DNA from: a bacterium | GTDB lineage: Bacteria > Bacillota_I > Bacilli_A > RF39 > UBA660 | DNA length: 64,000 nucleotides | NCBI GenBank assembly: GCA_963641945.1 | Contig: CAVIDW010000001.1 | Coordinates: 31,136 to 95,135 of the forward strand | Direction: 5' to 3' | Part shown: in pieces, positions 3,642-25,360 of the stretch | Layout: each line of letters opens with the position of its first letter | How positions within the stretch are numbered: position 1 is the first letter of the stretch | Notes under the pieces: model-generated | Told to the model about the DNA's origin: nothing | The model's database searches: none | What the model saw: the letters and a program-made list of their open reading frames with translations, nothing else | Position numbers and translations under genes: made by a program

Positions 3642-4802
3642 TTAATCTAATTTTGCTCCGCAGTTACTACAGAATTTTCCTGTTCCTTTTGTATGGCATT
3701 CAGGACATTCTTTAGATTCTTCTTCTTTAATTTCAACAATTGGTTCTTCTGTTCTACCAAAGATTGTACCCATTTCTGGTTGTTGATTTCCTGGTTGATA
3801 TCCAGCTACATCTGATCCTTGATTTGCTGCATTCATCATACTTCCAGCTGCTCCATTTGCCATATTCATTCCCATGAATCCCATCATTGCTCCATTTGAA
3901 TTACTTGAAGCATTTCTTAAAGCATCAGCAGAAGCACTAGCCATTAATCCTGATTGTAAATTTTTATTTGAGAAAATAGTTGCTTCATCAATCTTATTAA
4001 CTTTTGTCATTGAATCATCAGTTAAATTAATATCTCCAATAGCAACATCTGTAATTTCTAATCCATAATTCTTTTTCCATGATTCATCTAAGCATACATT
4101 CATTTCATTTGAAATATCACTATTATATAAACCAATATCTCCAAAAGAAACTTTATTTTTTCTCATAACTATTGAAATTGCTTGAGTAACTTGTTCTACA
4201 AATTTAGCTTGTAATTGACTTCCAACAATTTCTTCATATGTAACAGTATCTTCTGGATTAGCTCCAATTACACTATTAACCAAAAGAATTGGGTCAGCTA
4301 CTTTAAATGCATATTCTCCAAAGAATGTAACTTCTAACATACCATATTTTTCATCAGTAATCTTTTTAGGCTGTGGTGAACCAAATTTATTTCCGGTAAT
4401 TGTTAATAAATTTACAAAGTAAACTCTTTGATCTTTAGCTGTTTGTCCACCATAAGTAAATCTTTTACCAATAGTTTTAAAAGTATCAATAATTCCTTTT
4501 CCTAAACCGCCTGTAAAAATACTTGGTTCGCTACTTGTATCATAATAAAAAGTTCCTGCTTCAGCTGTAAATTCTTTAATCTCTCCATTATCAATAATCA
4601 TCATTGCCATTCCTTGTGGAACTGCAATTGTACTACCATTTGAAATTATTCCTTCTGAAGGATTTTTGTTTCCTTCTCCATGATTTACTACTCCTTTTTG
4701 AATAATAACATTTTTTGCTATAGTTGGACAAGTTACAAATTCTTTAAATTGATCACCTAAAGCCGAAGTAGTAGCTCCAGATAATGCTTTAATTAATCCC
4801 AT
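3642..4802 (-). CDS. SPFH/band-7 family protein (YdjI-like) with C-terminal zinc ribbon
   Basis: 386 aa. N-terminus MGLIKA...LGDQFKEF and an internal GGLGKGIIDTFKTIGKRFTYGG...DQRVYFVN resemble B. subtilis YdjI. C-terminal CPECH...CSNCGAKL zinc ribbon. Confidence 0.55.
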   Translation of the reverse strand: MGLIKALSGATTSALGDQFKEFVTCPTIAKNVIIQKGVVNHGEGNKNPSEGIISNGSTIAVPQGMAMMIIDNGEIKEFTAEAGTFYYDTSSEPSIFTGGLGKGIIDTFKTIGKRFTYGGQTAKDQRVYFVNLLTITGNKFGSPQPKKITDEKYGMLEVTFFGEYAFKVADPILLVNSVIGANPEDTVTYEEIVGSQLQAKFVEQVTQAISIVMRKNKVSFGDIGLYNSDISNEMNVCLDESWKKNYGLEITDVAIGDINLTDDSMTKVNKIDEATIFSNKNLQSGLMASASADALRNASSNSNGAMMGFMGMNMANGAAGSMMNAANQGSDVAGYQPGNQQPEMGTIFGRTEEPIVEIKEEESKECPECHTKGTGKFCSNCGAKLD

Positions 4803-4904: not shown

Positions 4905-6083
4905 TTAAGCTTTTTTATCTATTTCTATTATTATTTGATATTTGTCATCTAAATCCATTTCAGATGTTTCAATTAATCTACTTACTTCATCTAAACTAGA
5001 TACAAATTTTCTAACCTTTCCTATTACTTTTGGTAAATTAACTTCTCCGTCTTCAGAAATTAAACTATCTGTTTCTTCAATTATTGTTTCTTTTTTCTTT
5101 TCGAATACTGGATTTTCTTCTTCTAACTCTTTTACTTCAAACTGATTTATTGATTGTGATGGAGTAAGTTCAATTGCTTCAATCGAATCTTCTAATTTAG
5201 TTTCTTCTTTTAGTTCCTCATGCATTTCGAATACTGGTTTTTCTTGTTTAATATTTTCTATTATATTTAAAGTATTAGTACTTTGAAATGGATTGATTAT
5301 TTCTCTATCATCTTTGTATTCTACAAGTTCCGATTTTTCATTATCTGGTTCTAATTTTTTTTGTTCATTTATATCTATTACTTGAGGCACATCTATTTTA
5401 ATTTCTTCTGTAGGCTTATTTTTCTGAGGATTTAAGAATAATTCAATATCTTTTGGAATATCAAAATGATTACTATCTTTATTTAAAATCATACTCACTT
5501 CATCTTCAGTTTGTTTAACTGTTAATTTTTCATTTATGATTCTATTTAATAAATTTATTTGTAAATCTTTATTACTTAAAGATAATAAAGTTCTAGCATG
5601 TCTTTCTGATATTTTGTTATATAATAATGCATCTTGAACTTCTTTAGGTAAGTTTAAAAGTCTTAATCTATTTGCAACAGAAGATTGGCTCACTCCAAGT
5701 TTTTGAGCTATATCATCTTGTGTGAATCCTCTATTCATTAGTTTCTTATATGATTGAGCTTCTTCAATGACAGTTAAATTTTTTCTTTGAAGATTTTCTA
5801 ATAAAGCTATTTCAGCACTTGTATCATCATCTGTGTTATTCATAATTGCTGGAATTCTTTTAAGACCAGCTAAACATGATGCTTTATATCTTCTTTCACC
5901 AGCAATAATTTCATATTTTTCTCCTATCTTTCTTACGACAATAGGTTGTATAACACCATATTTAATTATAGAATTAGCTAAATCATTTAATTCTTTTTCA
6001 TTAAATGCTAATCTTGGTTGAAATCTATTTGGTAGTATATCTTCTACTGGTATATATAAAACTTTATCTTTATTATCTTCCAT
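4905..6083 (-). CDS. parB: ParB/Spo0J/Noc-family partition protein with long acidic/Lys-rich C-terminal extension; no adjacent parA
   Basis: 392 aa. ParB N-domain motifs (RFQPR, IQPIVVR, GERRYKA) and an HTH (TQDDIAQKLGVSQSSVANRLRLL). About 150 aa of low-complexity sequence precede the C-terminus. Confidence 0.8.
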   Translation of the reverse strand: MEDNKDKVLYIPVEDILPNRFQPRLAFNEKELNDLANSIIKYGVIQPIVVRKIGEKYEIIAGERRYKASCLAGLKRIPAIMNNTDDDTSAEIALLENLQRKNLTVIEEAQSYKKLMNRGFTQDDIAQKLGVSQSSVANRLRLLNLPKEVQDALLYNKISERHARTLLSLSNKDLQINLLNRIINEKLTVKQTEDEVSMILNKDSNHFDIPKDIELFLNPQKNKPTEEIKIDVPQVIDINEQKKLEPDNEKSELVEYKDDREIINPFQSTNTLNIIENIKQEKPVFEMHEELKEETKLEDSIEAIELTPSQSINQFEVKELEEENPVFEKKKETIIEETDSLISEDGEVNLPKVIGKVRKFVSSLDEVSRLIETSEMDLDDKYQIIIEIDKKA

Positions 6084-6159
6084 AATCTTTCCTCTTTATT
6101 CTTATTATAATTTTAATCCATTTTATAAATTTTATCAAGATAAAAGTAGTATTTGGTTA

Positions 6160-6864
6160 CTACTTATATTTTTTTACTATTTTTGAATAGTTTTCTGGAT
6201 ATTTTATATTTGTTTTCTTTGTTTTTTTAAATACAGGTATTGTTCTAAAAGCATTATTTATTGGTAAATTATATGTTATTTTTTTAGTTAATTCTAAATC
6301 TAATTCTTTTAATAAATATTTATATTTTAATAATTCTTCATCACAATTAGATTTTAATGGAGAAAGATAACCATTTACTTTTACTAATGATGATGATAGT
6401 TCTAAAATAATTGGTATTGATGTTACTGCTCTACATGTAACAATATCAAATTTTTCTCTATTTTCTCTTGAATAGTCTTCTACTCTTGAATTTATTATTT
6501 CAACATTTTTTAAATTTAATTCTTTTTTTATGTGTTCTAAAAATGAACATTTTTTAGTATTAGACTCTATTAAAGTAACATTCAAATTATCAAATACTAT
6601 AGCAAGTACTAATCCTGGGAAACCAGCTCCTGTACCAAAATCACATAAAGACTTAGTAGTATTTAGATCAACTGCTTTTACTAAACATAGTGAATCATAA
6701 AAGTGAAGTAAAAATACATCTTTTTCTTCTAAAATAGTAGTCATGTTGAATTTATTATTCCATTCTACTAATGATTTAAAATAACTATATAATTTGTTAT
6801 AAATATCTTCTGTAATGCCTACATTAAGTGTTTTACAATTAGTTATAAATTCTTGTTTATTCAT
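6160..6864 (-). CDS. rsmG: 16S rRNA (guanine527-N7)-methyltransferase
   Basis: 234 aa. SAM motif DFGTGAGFPGLVLAI. Conserved position after mnmG. Confidence 0.9.
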   Translation of the reverse strand: MNKQEFITNCKTLNVGITEDIYNKLYSYFKSLVEWNNKFNMTTILEEKDVFLLHFYDSLCLVKAVDLNTTKSLCDFGTGAGFPGLVLAIVFDNLNVTLIESNTKKCSFLEHIKKELNLKNVEIINSRVEDYSRENREKFDIVTCRAVTSIPIILELSSSLVKVNGYLSPLKSNCDEELLKYKYLLKELDLELTKKITYNLPINNAFRTIPVFKKTKKTNIKYPENYSKIVKKYK

Positions 6865-24096: not shown

Positions 24097-24118
24097 TCAT
24101 TCTTTTTTATTTATTTAA

Positions 24119-25190
24119 TGTTCCACATGAAACAATTATTTCCCGGGAAATAAAAAATGTTTAAAAAATATTTCCCGGGAAATATTTTTGTATGTTCCAC
24201 GTGAAACATATTGTTATTAAGTTATTTTTATTGGCTGTTCATAATTTAAATCGAGATGATATATTATATGTTATTTCATTTCTCGATACGTTTTATCAAT
24301 TGTTAAATTTTAATTAAATTTTATTGTTTATAATATAATGTTTCACGTGAAATATATTGTGGATAAGTATTATTAAAGATACCAAATATATATTAGTATT
24401 AATTTGATTGTTATATTCTTTTATAATTCAATTTTTCATTTTCACTTTCTAAGAAGTGATTTTTCCTTGTAATTACGGCACTTTGTATACTTTTTATATA
24501 CTATTTTAATTTTAAAATATGTATTTATTTGTATGTTCCACGTGAAACATGTGTGGATAAATAGCTAAAACGTGTTAAATTTTAAGAAAATATTTAATAT
24601 TTAGTTTAAATTTATTATTTTGAGTTTGTATTTTTAATTAAATTTTTTATAGGTTTCACGTGGAACATATTGTTAATATGATTATATGTTAATAAATATT
24701 TTTTTTTAATCATTATTTATATTAAAATTTTTTTCTTTTAAATATATGTTTATCCCAGTAATTTCGGTGTTTTTTTATATTTTTGTAAAAGAATTTTAAT
24801 AAATATATTTAATGTTCCACGTGAAACATGATGTTAATAACTTTTTAAAAAATTTATAATTTATTTTTATTTTATTAAAAAAGATGTTAAATATTATATT
24901 CAATAACAATTTTTATGTTTCACGTGGAACATTGTGTTGAAAACTTAATATTTTTGTTAAATATACTTAATTATTGCCTATTATTTTATTAATTTTATTA
25001 AATATTTTTTACAATTTATAATATGTTCCACGTGAAACATATTGTTAATAAGTTGCGTTTATTTGTTATTTTTAATTTAAATTGAGATTATATATTATTT
25101 TATTTCTTGATGCATTTTAGAAATTATTGATATATTTTATAAAATAAAAAGTGTTAATTGTTAATGTTTCACGTGGAACATTGTTGATAA
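24119..25190. repeat. intergenic array of nine 18-bp near-palindromes ATGTTYCACGTGRAACAT, each followed by a DnaA-box-like 9-mer
   Basis: Copies at 24119, 24193, 24339, 24533, 24651, 24812, 24915, 25023 and 25164, in alternating orientation. The downstream 9-mers are TGTGGATAA (perfect DnaA-box complement, twice), TGTTGATAA and TGTTAATAA (three times). The copy at 24119 has a degenerate CACATG core and is followed by the CCCGGG palindrome instead of a box. No ORF of 60 aa or more across the region. Confidence 0.8.
24140..24186. repeat. two copies of 14-bp perfect palindrome ATTTCCCGGGAAAT
   Basis: 24140-24153 and 24173-24186, 33 bp apart. The GC-rich CCCGGG core is unusual in this AT-rich genome. 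Confidence 0.7.
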
Positions 25191-25267
25191 GTTTGTAAAT
25201 TTAAGAAAAATTGTGTAAAAAGTTAGATTTAATTGTTGATTTTGTGTTTATTTTGTTGTAAAATTTG

Positions 25268-25346
25268 TTTGTGCAACAATATGTGCATGAACCAGGTCAG
25301 AATTGGAAGATAGCAGCCTTAAATGTAATTATTGTGTGCACTTTTT
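25268..25346 (+). ncRNA. ffs: small SRP RNA (4.5S/scRNA-type) candidate
   Basis: The domain IV signature CCAGGUCAG...GGAAG.UAGCAGCC sits in a GC-richer hairpin (GTGCAAC...GTGTGCAC) ending in T6. An extended -10 (TGTTGTAAAAT) lies upstream. In B. subtilis scr lies next to tadA/dnaX. Confidence 0.6.
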
Positions 25347-25360
25347 TAATGGTGTAAAAA

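What the first reader, a model, noticed from the sequence alone, without database searches (positions are those of the whole stretch)
4905..6083. Orphan ParB-family gene with about 150-aa low-complexity extension and no parA
The usual rsmG-noc-soj-spo0J arrangement is reduced to a single ParB-like gene directly after rsmG. The protein is 392 aa against about 280, with a long Glu/Lys/Pro-rich linker before the C-terminal dimerisation region. It could be a Noc-like or a ParA-independent partition/condensin-loading protein. parS sites (TGTTNCACGTGAAACA) were not seen in the window, except that the parS consensus resembles the 18-bp palindrome of the gyrA-downstream array.
Basis: partly seen in the sequence, partly recalled or inferred. 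Interest (0 to 1): 0.55.

Follow-up and report, generated by a model that had tools for sequence, protein, structure and literature searches.

The report
Noc-like clamp lacking its membrane anchor
The gene is not an orphan ParB but a variant of the nucleoid-occlusion protein Noc: it has no membrane-binding helix, carries a long acidic disordered linker, and its predicted binding sites sit interleaved with a dense array of centromere (parS) sites next to the replication origin, an arrangement conserved across an uncultured gut lineage of Bacilli.

Summary
The ORF is real: 4905-6083, minus strand, 392 aa, 76 nt after rsmG, with no ParA or second ParB in the 64 kb window.

It is Noc-type, not Spo0J-type:
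- Best matches are Noc structures (190-203 bits) against 157-158 for Spo0J.
- The best NCBIfam model is nucleoid_noc.
- The four DNA-specificity residues read Q-R-N-R (Noc is QKKR, ParB is R..G).
- The C-terminal domain matches the Noc CTD (hhalign 94%) and not the Spo0J CTD (0.8%).

It differs from canonical Noc in two ways. It lacks the N-terminal amphipathic membrane helix, and it has a 136-aa acidic, predicted-disordered linker carrying conserved short motifs. The best 150 cluster representatives in a 1.84-billion-protein library show the same build, and the few that carry an organism label are uncultured.

The gyrA-downstream spacer holds nine canonical parS sites plus two perfect Noc-binding sites (NBS). 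In 80 related loci this spacer holds 306 parS and 91 NBS, often alternating, and no site mixes the two half-site types.

Two discrete site classes imply a separate canonical ParB elsewhere in the genome. This is inferred; I could not scan the whole genome.

Verdict: a new variant of a known kind, moderately to highly interesting.

The parts
4905..6083 (-). Gene for a 392-aa Noc-type ParB-family protein (stop codon 4905-4907).
   Evidence: ORF. Pfam ParB_N and HTH_ParB. TIGR04285 nucleoid_noc scores 270.8 bits. Noc structures are the best PDB matches.
6091..6094 (-). Shine-Dalgarno GAGG about 8 nt upstream of the ATG. In-frame stop codons lie just upstream, so no N-terminal extension is possible.
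5787..6065 (-). N-terminal ParB/CTPase domain (residues 7-99). It contains PNRFQPR, GERRYKA (residues 62-68) and ENLQR (96-100). There is no preceding amphipathic helix: residue 3 aligns to residue 25 of B. subtilis Noc.
5490..5783 (-). HTH DNA-binding domain (residues 101-198). The specificity residues are Q133, R139, N144 and R161, equivalent to Caulobacter ParB positions 173/179/184/201.
   Evidence: Alignments. The rule comes from PMC7383237.
5064..5471 (-). Acidic linker (residues 205-340) with conserved short motifs: LPxDIxxFLxP (209-219), DxxVPxVxDI (about 226-238) and EYxDDxEIINPFQ (255-267).
   Evidence: Composition. pLDDT below 50 over most of it. Conservation islands.
4908..5063 (-). 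Noc-type C-terminal (dimerisation) domain, residues 341-392. It is a helix at 350-368 followed by ...TSEMDLDDKYQIIIEIDK.
   Evidence: hhalign against the B. subtilis Noc CTD gives 94.3% probability, E 1e-7. Against the Spo0J CTD it gives 0.8%. With the linker removed in silico, TIGR04285 aligns end to end.
6160..6864 (-). rsmG (gidB), the upstream neighbour. The gene after rsmG is the position noc occupies in B. subtilis.
   Evidence: The B. subtilis gene order is from my own knowledge.
24137..24152 (.). Perfect Noc-binding site (NBS), TATTTCCCGGGAAATA.
24169..24184 (.). Perfect Noc-binding site (NBS), TATTTCCCGGGAAATA.
24119..25180 (.). Array of nine parS sites starting at 24119, 24193, 24339, 24534, 24652, 24813, 24916, 25024 and 25165. 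It lies in the gyrA-tadA spacer, about 9-10 kb from dnaA.
   Evidence: The same array is conserved in related loci.

Best explanation
The gene encodes the lineage's Noc orthologue. It is a CTP-dependent ParB-family DNA clamp whose helix-turn-helix is set for the Noc-binding site (NBS, TATTTCCCGGGAAATA) and not for parS.

It belongs to a large subfamily, uncultured wherever an organism label was found. This subfamily has lost the N-terminal amphipathic membrane-targeting helix that canonical Noc needs. It has gained a long acidic, disordered linker between the DNA-binding domain and the Noc-type C-terminal dimerisation domain.

Proposed mechanism:
1. Dimers load at NBS sites. Two perfect sites lie in this window.
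2. They close into a clamp on CTP and spread over nearby DNA.
3. In this lineage the NBS sites are concentrated in, and interleaved with, the origin-proximal parS array downstream of gyrA. The protein therefore coats the same roughly 1-kb centromere region as a separate canonical ParB.
4. Because it cannot bind membrane through its own N-terminus, its output most likely runs through the conserved short motifs in the linker, which would recruit one or more partners.

Shown: domain make-up, Noc-type residues and CTD, absence of the helix, linker properties, the sites and their conservation.

Inferred: NBS binding by this protein, CTP clamping, existence of a separate ParB, and partner recruitment.
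For: Noc versus ParB assignment:
- PDB hits: Noc 203, 202 and 191 bits; Spo0J 158 and 157 bits.
- TIGR04285 nucleoid_noc is the best NCBIfam model.
- 49% identity to B. subtilis Noc over residues 4-203.
- Specificity residues are Q/R/N/R here. The pattern is QKNR in 108 of the best 150 representatives, and Q...R in every one that could be read.
- Jalal et al. (PMC7383237) report that Q173 reads A1 and R201 reads C6 of NBS once a K or R sits at 179 or 184. [quoted passage not shown]
- The CTD profile matches the Noc CTD at 94.3% and the Spo0J CTD at 0.8%. With the linker deleted, the Noc model aligns over positions 1-255.

Sites:
- Two perfect NBS and nine parS lie in the window.
- In 80 related loci, 306 parS and 91 NBS lie within -100 to +2500 of the gyrA end. 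The other 598 kb holds 0 parS and 19 NBS.
- The two site types alternate in L070 and L082.
- NBS sites are mostly 20-70 bp from a parS.
- Half-sites fall into two discrete classes, 579 and 194, with 3 hybrids and no site pairing a parS half with an NBS half.

Missing helix:
- The start codon is fixed by upstream in-frame stops and a Shine-Dalgarno.
- PNRFQPR starts at residues 15-19 in 140 of the best 150 representatives. It starts at about residue 40 in B. subtilis Noc (numbering from the alignment).
- NocNdelta10 is non-functional, and the helix is 'extremely' conserved in Noc homologues (PMC4331003).

Linker:
- Charge -20. AF2 pLDDT below 50 over most of 224-337.
- Conserved motif islands.
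- The wider family's linkers have a median of 246 aa and are acidic.
Against: - No binding, CTPase or localisation data exist for this protein.
- It scores below NCBI's Noc cut-off: 270.8 bits, or 282 with the linker removed, against 315.
- Position 184 is N, not the K that is almost invariably found in Noc.
- The exact QRNR and QKNR variants were not found in the held supplements of the deep mutational scan.
- No canonical ParB or ParA was found in the window, in +/-10 kb around the orthologue in 21 related loci, or in +/-6 kb around gyrA in 80 loci. From my own knowledge, Firmicutes usually keep parB close to oriC, so its absence there leaves room for a single-protein scenario.
- 15 of 55 related arrays carry parS only.
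- The AF2 model rests on a shallow alignment of 19 sequences (mean pLDDT 57).
Confidence: 0.7

Rival explanations
1. This is the only ParB-family protein in the genome. It serves as the centromere-binding protein, either binding parS alone or both parS and NBS. It would load SMC and segregate origins without ParA.
For: - No second ParB and no ParA were found in the window or in about 1.1 Mb of origin-proximal DNA from relatives.
- parS arrays are ubiquitous in the lineage.
- Dual-specificity variants exist in the mutational scan: 82 of 362 strong NBS binders.
Against: - Q at position 173 and R at 201 are the NBS-specific states.
- R173 and G201 are invariant in known ParB orthologues, and parS-specific variants in the scan always keep R173.
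- Dual-specificity variants mostly carry T or S at 201, not R.
- Two sharply discrete palindromic site classes with essentially no hybrids are what two separate proteins would maintain.
- The CTD is Noc-type.
Confidence: 0.1
2. It is a functionally ordinary nucleoid-occlusion factor. It still tethers DNA to the membrane to block Z-ring assembly, but the anchor is supplied differently. The anchor could be a partner bound by the linker motifs, such as a membrane or divisome protein or the downstream SPFH protein. It could also be the basic amphipathic start of the C-terminal helix (LPKVIGKVRKF).
For: - It is a Noc orthologue by sequence and position.
- NBS sites also occur scattered outside the array in relatives: 19 in 598 kb.
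- The strongest amphipathic segment is residues 350-371, whose first turn carries charge +4.
- An SPFH/Band_7_1 gene follows directly in the closer relatives.
- A heterologous amphipathic helix can replace the Noc N-terminus (PMC4331003).
Against: - The helix at 350-368 is homologous to the ordinary Noc CTD helix, so it is not a new anchor.
- The SPFH neighbour is missing in relatives L010, L013, L015, L018 and L020, and in L101.
- In this window the only NBS sites are the two at the centromere array. That is unlike a chromosome-wide occlusion pattern, although 64 kb is a small sample.
Confidence: 0.25
3. It acts mainly on replication initiation or origin organisation, as reported for S. aureus Noc, which restrains DnaA-dependent initiation. 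It would do so by coating an origin-proximal region that also carries DnaA boxes.
For: - The title of PMC5540599 states that Noc controls DNA replication initiation in S. aureus. The paper was listed in the search but not read.
- The NBS/parS array lies about 9-10 kb from dnaA, and the GC-skew minimum is near 14 kb.
- The only two perfect DnaA boxes (TTATCCACA) in the 64 kb directly abut parS sites, at 24358 and 24552.
Against: - DnaA-box counts at up to 1 mismatch in the window are not clearly above chance: 33 against 25 expected.
- The perfect boxes abut parS, not NBS.
- There is no evidence that this variant touches DnaA.
Confidence: 0.15

Closest known systems
Noc (nucleoid occlusion protein; B. 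subtilis YyaA, G. thermoleovorans Noc; TIGR04285)
   Same: - The gene sits directly after rsmG.
- ParB_N CTPase domain plus HTH, 49% identical to B. subtilis Noc over 200 residues.
- NBS-type specificity residues Q...R, with a permissive basic residue at position 179.
- Noc-type C-terminal domain ending at the same lysine.
- Perfect NBS consensus sites are present in the genome.
   Different: - No N-terminal amphipathic membrane-targeting helix or spacer; about 22 residues are missing.
- N instead of K at position 184.
- A 136-aa acidic disordered linker inserted between the HTH and the CTD. It reaches roughly 570 aa (protein length minus about 250 aa of folded domains) in the longest family members.
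- Scores below the NCBI family cut-off.
- NBS sites are concentrated inside the parS array rather than only scattered.
Spo0J/ParB (chromosomal partition protein)
   Same: - Same superfamily fold, with CTP-binding motifs GERRxxA and ENLQR.
- Origin-proximal gene.
- The same locus carries a dense canonical parS array.
   Different: - Q and R at the positions that are R173 and G201 in all known ParB orthologues.
- No N-terminal Lys/Arg ParA-interaction peptide.
- The CTD is not Spo0J-type (hhalign 0.8%).
- No adjacent parA.
ParB without ParA in Staphylococcus and Streptococcus, and the S. aureus origin anchor RicO
   Same: - Firmicutes that organise origins without ParA.
- RicO binds origin-proximal sites and bridges DNA to the membrane (bioRxiv 10.64898/2026.03.06.710092).
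   Different: - The abstract read here describes RicO as an N-terminal DNA-binding domain plus a C-terminal amphipathic helix, without calling it a ParB-family protein.
- The streptococcal case, a true parS-specific ParB without ParA, is from my own knowledge.
- The staphylococcal case is described in that abstract as an 'incomplete partition system'.

Membership tests
Noc (nucleoid occlusion protein) | NBS-specific residues Q173, K179, K184, R201 (Caulobacter ParB numbering). | tested here: inconclusive
   Here the residues are Q133, R139, N144 and R161. The family is QKNR in 108 of the best 150 representatives. Three of the four states are Noc-like. Position 184 is N. The literature says one K/R at 179 or 184 suffices. 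The exact variant was not found in the held supplements.
Noc (nucleoid occlusion protein) | N-terminal amphipathic membrane-targeting helix (aa 1-15), required for function. | tested here: not met
   The protein starts 2-3 residues before the point that aligns to residue 25 of B. subtilis Noc. In-frame stops upstream exclude an extension. The same holds in at least 140 of the best 150 family representatives. The requirement is documented in PMC4331003.
Noc (nucleoid occlusion protein) | Noc-type C-terminal domain. | tested here: met
   hhalign of the family CTD profile against the B. subtilis Noc CTD gives 94.3%, E 1e-7, over 44 columns to the last residue. The Spo0J CTD gives 0.8%. The TIGR04285 alignment covers 1-255 when the linker is removed. 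The Noc one scores 373 bits end to end on TIGR04285.
Noc (nucleoid occlusion protein) | Score at or above the NCBIfam TIGR04285 cut-off (315 bits). | tested here: not met
   270.8 bits for the native protein and 282.2 bits with the linker deleted.
Noc (nucleoid occlusion protein) | Cognate NBS sites (TATTTCCCGGGAAATA) present in the genome. | tested here: met
   Two perfect sites in the window. 110 sites at up to 1 mismatch in 80 related loci.
Noc (nucleoid occlusion protein) | Binds NBS, binds CTP, recruits DNA to the membrane and inhibits division. | not testable with these tools
   Needs biochemistry and cell biology.
Chromosomal ParB/Spo0J | parS-specific residues R173 and G201, invariant in ParB orthologues. 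| tested here: not met
   Q133 and R161 occupy these positions.
Chromosomal ParB/Spo0J | ParB_N CTPase domain with GERRxRA and ENLQR, plus HTH_ParB. | tested here: met
   Pfam E-values of 2.5e-32 and 7.7e-33. GERRYKA and ENLQRKNL are present. From my own knowledge, these motifs are shared with Noc, so this does not discriminate.
Chromosomal ParB/Spo0J | Partner parA/soj adjacent, and an N-terminal ParA-stimulating peptide. | tested here: not met
   No Soj homologue in the window or in 101 related loci (Pfam lists). The N-terminus, MEDNKDKVLY, has no LG(K/R)GL-type motif; that motif definition is from my own knowledge. Genome-wide absence of parA was not tested.
Chromosomal ParB/Spo0J | Spo0J-type C-terminal dimerisation domain. 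| tested here: not met
   hhalign probability 0.8%.

The most novel reading that the evidence does not exclude
In this lineage the origin-proximal centromere is a composite of interleaved parS and NBS sites that co-load two different CTP clamps, ParB and this Noc variant. Having lost direct membrane binding, the Noc variant would work as an adaptor. Its disordered linker motifs would recruit a cellular partner that positions or anchors the origin, or that blocks division over it. One of these motifs, D-I-x-x-F-L-K, has the spacing of the FtsZ C-terminal peptide. This could substitute for ParA. A more radical version is that it is the only ParB-family protein and reads both site types.
Probability: 0.3. 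Interest if true: 0.85.

Novelty: new variant of a known kind. Interest (0 to 1): 0.62.

Why it matters
Current models of Noc rest on one mechanism: a CTP-gated N-terminal amphipathic helix pulls NBS-bound DNA to the membrane.

Here a very large natural family keeps the Noc DNA-binding and CTPase core and the Noc CTD but has no such helix. The best 150 representatives at 50% identity all share this build, and the few with an organism label are uncultured gut Bacilli/'Tenericutes'. In place of the helix the family has a long disordered, motif-bearing linker. Either Noc has a second, membrane-independent mode of action, or the anchor has been handed to a partner. Both options are directly testable.

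The conserved interleaving of NBS with parS at one origin-proximal locus was not mentioned in the few papers I read here. It suggests functional coupling of the two paralogous clamps. It also offers a natural system for asking how two sliding clamps share one loading zone.

Practically, these genes are currently annotated as 'ParB/RepB/Spo0J family partition protein', which misstates their likely DNA target.

Tried and rejected
1. Finding parA or a second parB.
- tblastn with B. subtilis Soj and Spo0J against the window and 100 related loci (about 1.1 Mb) found nothing beyond the Noc-like gene.
- No tool reads a whole MAG, so the genome-wide question stays open.

2. Walking beyond the right end of the window. 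Two window proteins were not on record.

3. Looking up the exact QRNR/QKNR variants in the Jalal et al. mutational-scan data. They are not in the held supplements, and PtoN12/QKAR is not named in the text.

4. Direct HMM match of the isolated C-terminal 54 aa, and of the isolated C-terminal 191 aa, to NCBIfam gave nothing. This was resolved by the in-silico linker deletion and hhalign.

5. BLASTP did not align the CTD to B. subtilis Noc.

6. The SPFH/Band_7_1 downstream gene as an obligatory partner was rejected as a strict rule. It is absent in several relatives.

7. The three unannotated ORFs between rpmH and dnaA as hidden ParB or ParA. They have no Pfam hit and no tblastn hit.

8. Organism names for the wider family. 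Cluster look-ups returned almost no names.

9. The AF2 model is too shallow (19 sequences, mean pLDDT 57) to be worth a fold search, so none was run.

Full report
**Observation**

The ORF at 4905-6083 on the minus strand is real and encodes 392 aa. The start codon is secure. The in-frame upstream sequence contains several stop codons, and a GAGG Shine-Dalgarno lies about 8 nt before the ATG.

The gene lies 76 nt after rsmG, at the end of the series rnpA-yidC-jag-mnmE-mnmG-rsmG. Downstream are an SPFH/Band_7_1 protein with a zinc ribbon, a class A PBP on the other strand, rpoE and prfA.

The window is about 24% G+C. The cumulative GC-skew minimum is near 14 kb, next to dnaA at 15191.

Pfam finds ParB_N (residues 7-99) and HTH_ParB (101-198) and nothing beyond residue 200.

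The '18-bp palindromes' downstream of gyrA are canonical parS. Nine sites with 0-1 mismatch to TGTTNCACGTGAAACA lie between 24119 and 25180. In all, 21 matches at up to 3 mismatches were found, against 1.09 expected.

The same spacer holds two perfect 16-bp Noc-binding sites, TATTTCCCGGGAAATA, at 24137 and 24169. CCCGGG is a conspicuous sequence in a 24% G+C genome.

The spacer ends with the SRP RNA gene at 25263-25357 and tadA.

**Noc-type, not Spo0J-type**

- The best solved-structure matches are Noc from Geobacillus thermoleovorans (203 and 202 bits) and B. subtilis (191 bits). Spo0J/ParB structures reach 157-158 bits or less.
- The best NCBIfam model is TIGR04285 nucleoid_noc at 270.8 bits. 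That is below the curated cut-off of 315.
- BLASTP gives 49% identity to B. subtilis Noc over residues 4-203.

Jalal et al. (PMC7383237) showed that four residues set the choice between parS and NBS. [quoted passage not shown] Noc has Q173, K179, K184 and R201. Q173 reads adenine 1 and R201 reads cytosine 6 of NBS, provided a K or R sits at 179 or 184.

In the alignments the equivalent residues here are Q133, R139, N144 and R161. This is the NBS-type pair Q...R with a permissive arginine.

The C-terminal domain is also Noc-type.
- A profile of the last roughly 60 residues of 36 family members matches the B. subtilis Noc C-terminus with 94.3% probability (E 1e-7), right to the terminal lysine.
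- The same profile does not match the Spo0J C-terminus (0.8%).
- Removing the linker in silico lets TIGR04285 align over all 255 positions, at 282 bits against 274 for the N-terminal 214 residues alone.

**Two departures from canonical Noc**

First, there is no N-terminal amphipathic helix. Residue 3 aligns to residue 25 of B. subtilis Noc. Adams et al. showed that this helix is extremely conserved among Noc homologues and that NocNdelta10 is non-functional (PMC4331003).

Second, residues 205-340 form a 136-aa linker. It has net charge -20 and 21% Glu. AlphaFold2 predicts it as unstructured, with pLDDT below 50 over nearly all of 224-337. The model rests on a shallow alignment and has mean pLDDT 57, with only the HTH domain confident.

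The linker is not featureless. Among orthologues at 58-93% identity it carries three conserved islands: LPxDIxKFLKP, EExLDIKVPEVVxI and EYxDDxEIINPFQ. The INPF core persists in most relatives down to 43% identity, with variants such as LSPF.

**A family, not an oddity**

- A word-indexed search returned more than 100 clusters of 386-415 aa at 58-93% identity. The only organism labels were Tenericutes/Mycoplasmatota MAGs, and the contigs looked up came from metagenomes, including human gut.
- An exhaustive HMMER search of 1.84 billion representatives gave 80,231 hits.
- The best 150 of these score 235-440 bits, which is higher than the PDB Noc sequences scored against this query in a different search. 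Of them, 142 are at least 330 aa and the longest is 821 aa.
- In 140 of the 150, PNRFQPR starts at residues 15-19. The specificity pattern is QKNR in 108, and Q...R in all that could be read.
- Their linkers have a median of 246 aa. They are acidic and N/E/P-rich, sometimes built of tandem repeats, with recurrent short motifs (GKFF, PGFMDID, NPF).
- The gene order rsmG-X is kept throughout. No soj or spo0J follows it in any of 21 loci, including a distant 596-aa member.

**The binding sites across the lineage**

Eighty metagenomic loci with GyrA 71-99% identical were fetched with 6-kb flanks.
- The stretch from -100 to +2500 of the gyrA end (129 kb in total) holds 306 parS and 91 NBS at up to 1 mismatch.
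- The remaining 598 kb holds 0 parS and 19 NBS.
- Of 55 loci with at least 800 bp of downstream sequence, 38 have both site types, 15 have parS only, 2 have NBS only and none has neither.
- In several loci the two sites alternate strictly, for example L070 and L082.
- NBS sites lie mostly 20-70 bp from the nearest parS.
- Half-sites fall into two discrete classes: G2/A7 (579) and A2/C7 (194). There are only 3 hybrids, and no site pairs a parS half with an NBS half.

**Interpretation**

Two sharply separated palindromic site classes, both under selection at one locus, are what two homodimeric proteins of different specificity would maintain.

The protein in hand has the NBS-type residues. I therefore assign NBS to it and infer that a canonical parS-binding ParB is encoded elsewhere. 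That inference is not shown.
- No such gene was found in the window, around the orthologue, or around gyrA in relatives.
- I could not scan a whole genome.
- From my own knowledge, Firmicutes normally keep parB near oriC. Its absence from roughly -20 to +50 kb keeps a single-protein scenario alive at about 10%.

**Mechanism**

The CTPase motifs GERRYKA and ENLQR are intact. The K replaces the third arginine. The corresponding R91A change in B. subtilis Noc was the one substitution that did not abolish foci.

The most likely sequence of events is as follows.
1. Loading at NBS.
2. CTP-dependent clamp closure and spreading over the centromere region, alongside ParB.
3. An output that cannot be direct membrane binding through the N-terminus.

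What the output is remains open. The options weighed in the rival explanations are these.
- Partner recruitment through the linker motifs. One motif, D-I-x-x-F-L-K, has the spacing of the FtsZ C-terminal peptide; this resemblance is from my own memory and was not tested.
- Classical occlusion with an anchor supplied in trans.
- A role in initiation control, as the title of PMC5540599 reports for S. aureus Noc. The only two perfect DnaA boxes in the window abut parS sites.

**Verdict**

The 'orphan ParB' is better described as a helix-less, long-linker Noc variant.
- 'No parS' was wrong.
- 'No parA' is true locally and unknown globally.

This is a new variant of a known kind. It is of real interest to people working on ParB/Noc CTP switches, because it removes the feature on which the accepted Noc mechanism depends and couples NBS to parS in one conserved array.

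Noticed in passing
window 24100-25260; also L021-L100, e.g. L070 4981-5580 and L082 2251-3030: The gyrA-tadA spacer is a conserved composite array of perfect parS and perfect NBS palindromes. They often alternate strictly and sit 20-70 bp apart. All 55 related loci with enough downstream sequence carry at least one of the two site types.
   Followed up: yes
window 24358-24366 and 24552-24560: The only two perfect DnaA boxes (TTATCCACA) in the 64 kb lie 3-4 nt after a parS site. Most other parS sites are followed by degenerate versions such as TTATTAACA or TTATCAACA.
   Followed up: partly
window 25263-25357 (+): Bacterial small SRP RNA (RF00169, 52.9 bits) lies between the parS/NBS array and tadA. 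In L082 it sits in the middle of the array.
   Followed up: yes
window 17930-18424 (+): A ComK-family protein (Pfam E 4.5e-45) is encoded between dnaN and recF, where B. subtilis has yaaA (from my own knowledge). The same placement is seen in the distant locus L101.
   Followed up: no
window 12365-14875 (-): Three ORFs of 140, 210 and 382 aa between rpmH and dnaA have no Pfam match. Relatives carry different unannotated ORFs at the same spot: 490 aa in L002 and none in L101.
   Followed up: partly
window 3642-4802 (-): An SPFH/Band_7_1 protein with a C-terminal zinc ribbon lies directly downstream of the Noc-like gene. It is conserved there in the closer relatives but missing in L010, L013, L015, L018, L020 and L101.
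   Followed up: partly
L002, L005-L007 (about 5.7 kb downstream of the Noc-like gene): A Spore_II_R (SpoIIR) gene lies next to prmC and murA in these 'Tenericutes/Mycoplasmatota'-labelled MAGs. Together with the PBP, this suggests a walled and possibly sporulation-related lineage.
   Followed up: no
P0174 (775 aa) and P0165 (596 aa), linker regions: Some family members have linkers made of many tandem copies of a 16-18-aa unit, such as PAMPSFETPVEQQPMN or QMNASQPVNQFGGMNEVP.
   Followed up: no
window 24209-24300 and 25040-25130: Longer imperfect repeats lie between parS sites. They include a hairpin-like element, aaatcgagat...atttctcgat.
   Followed up: no
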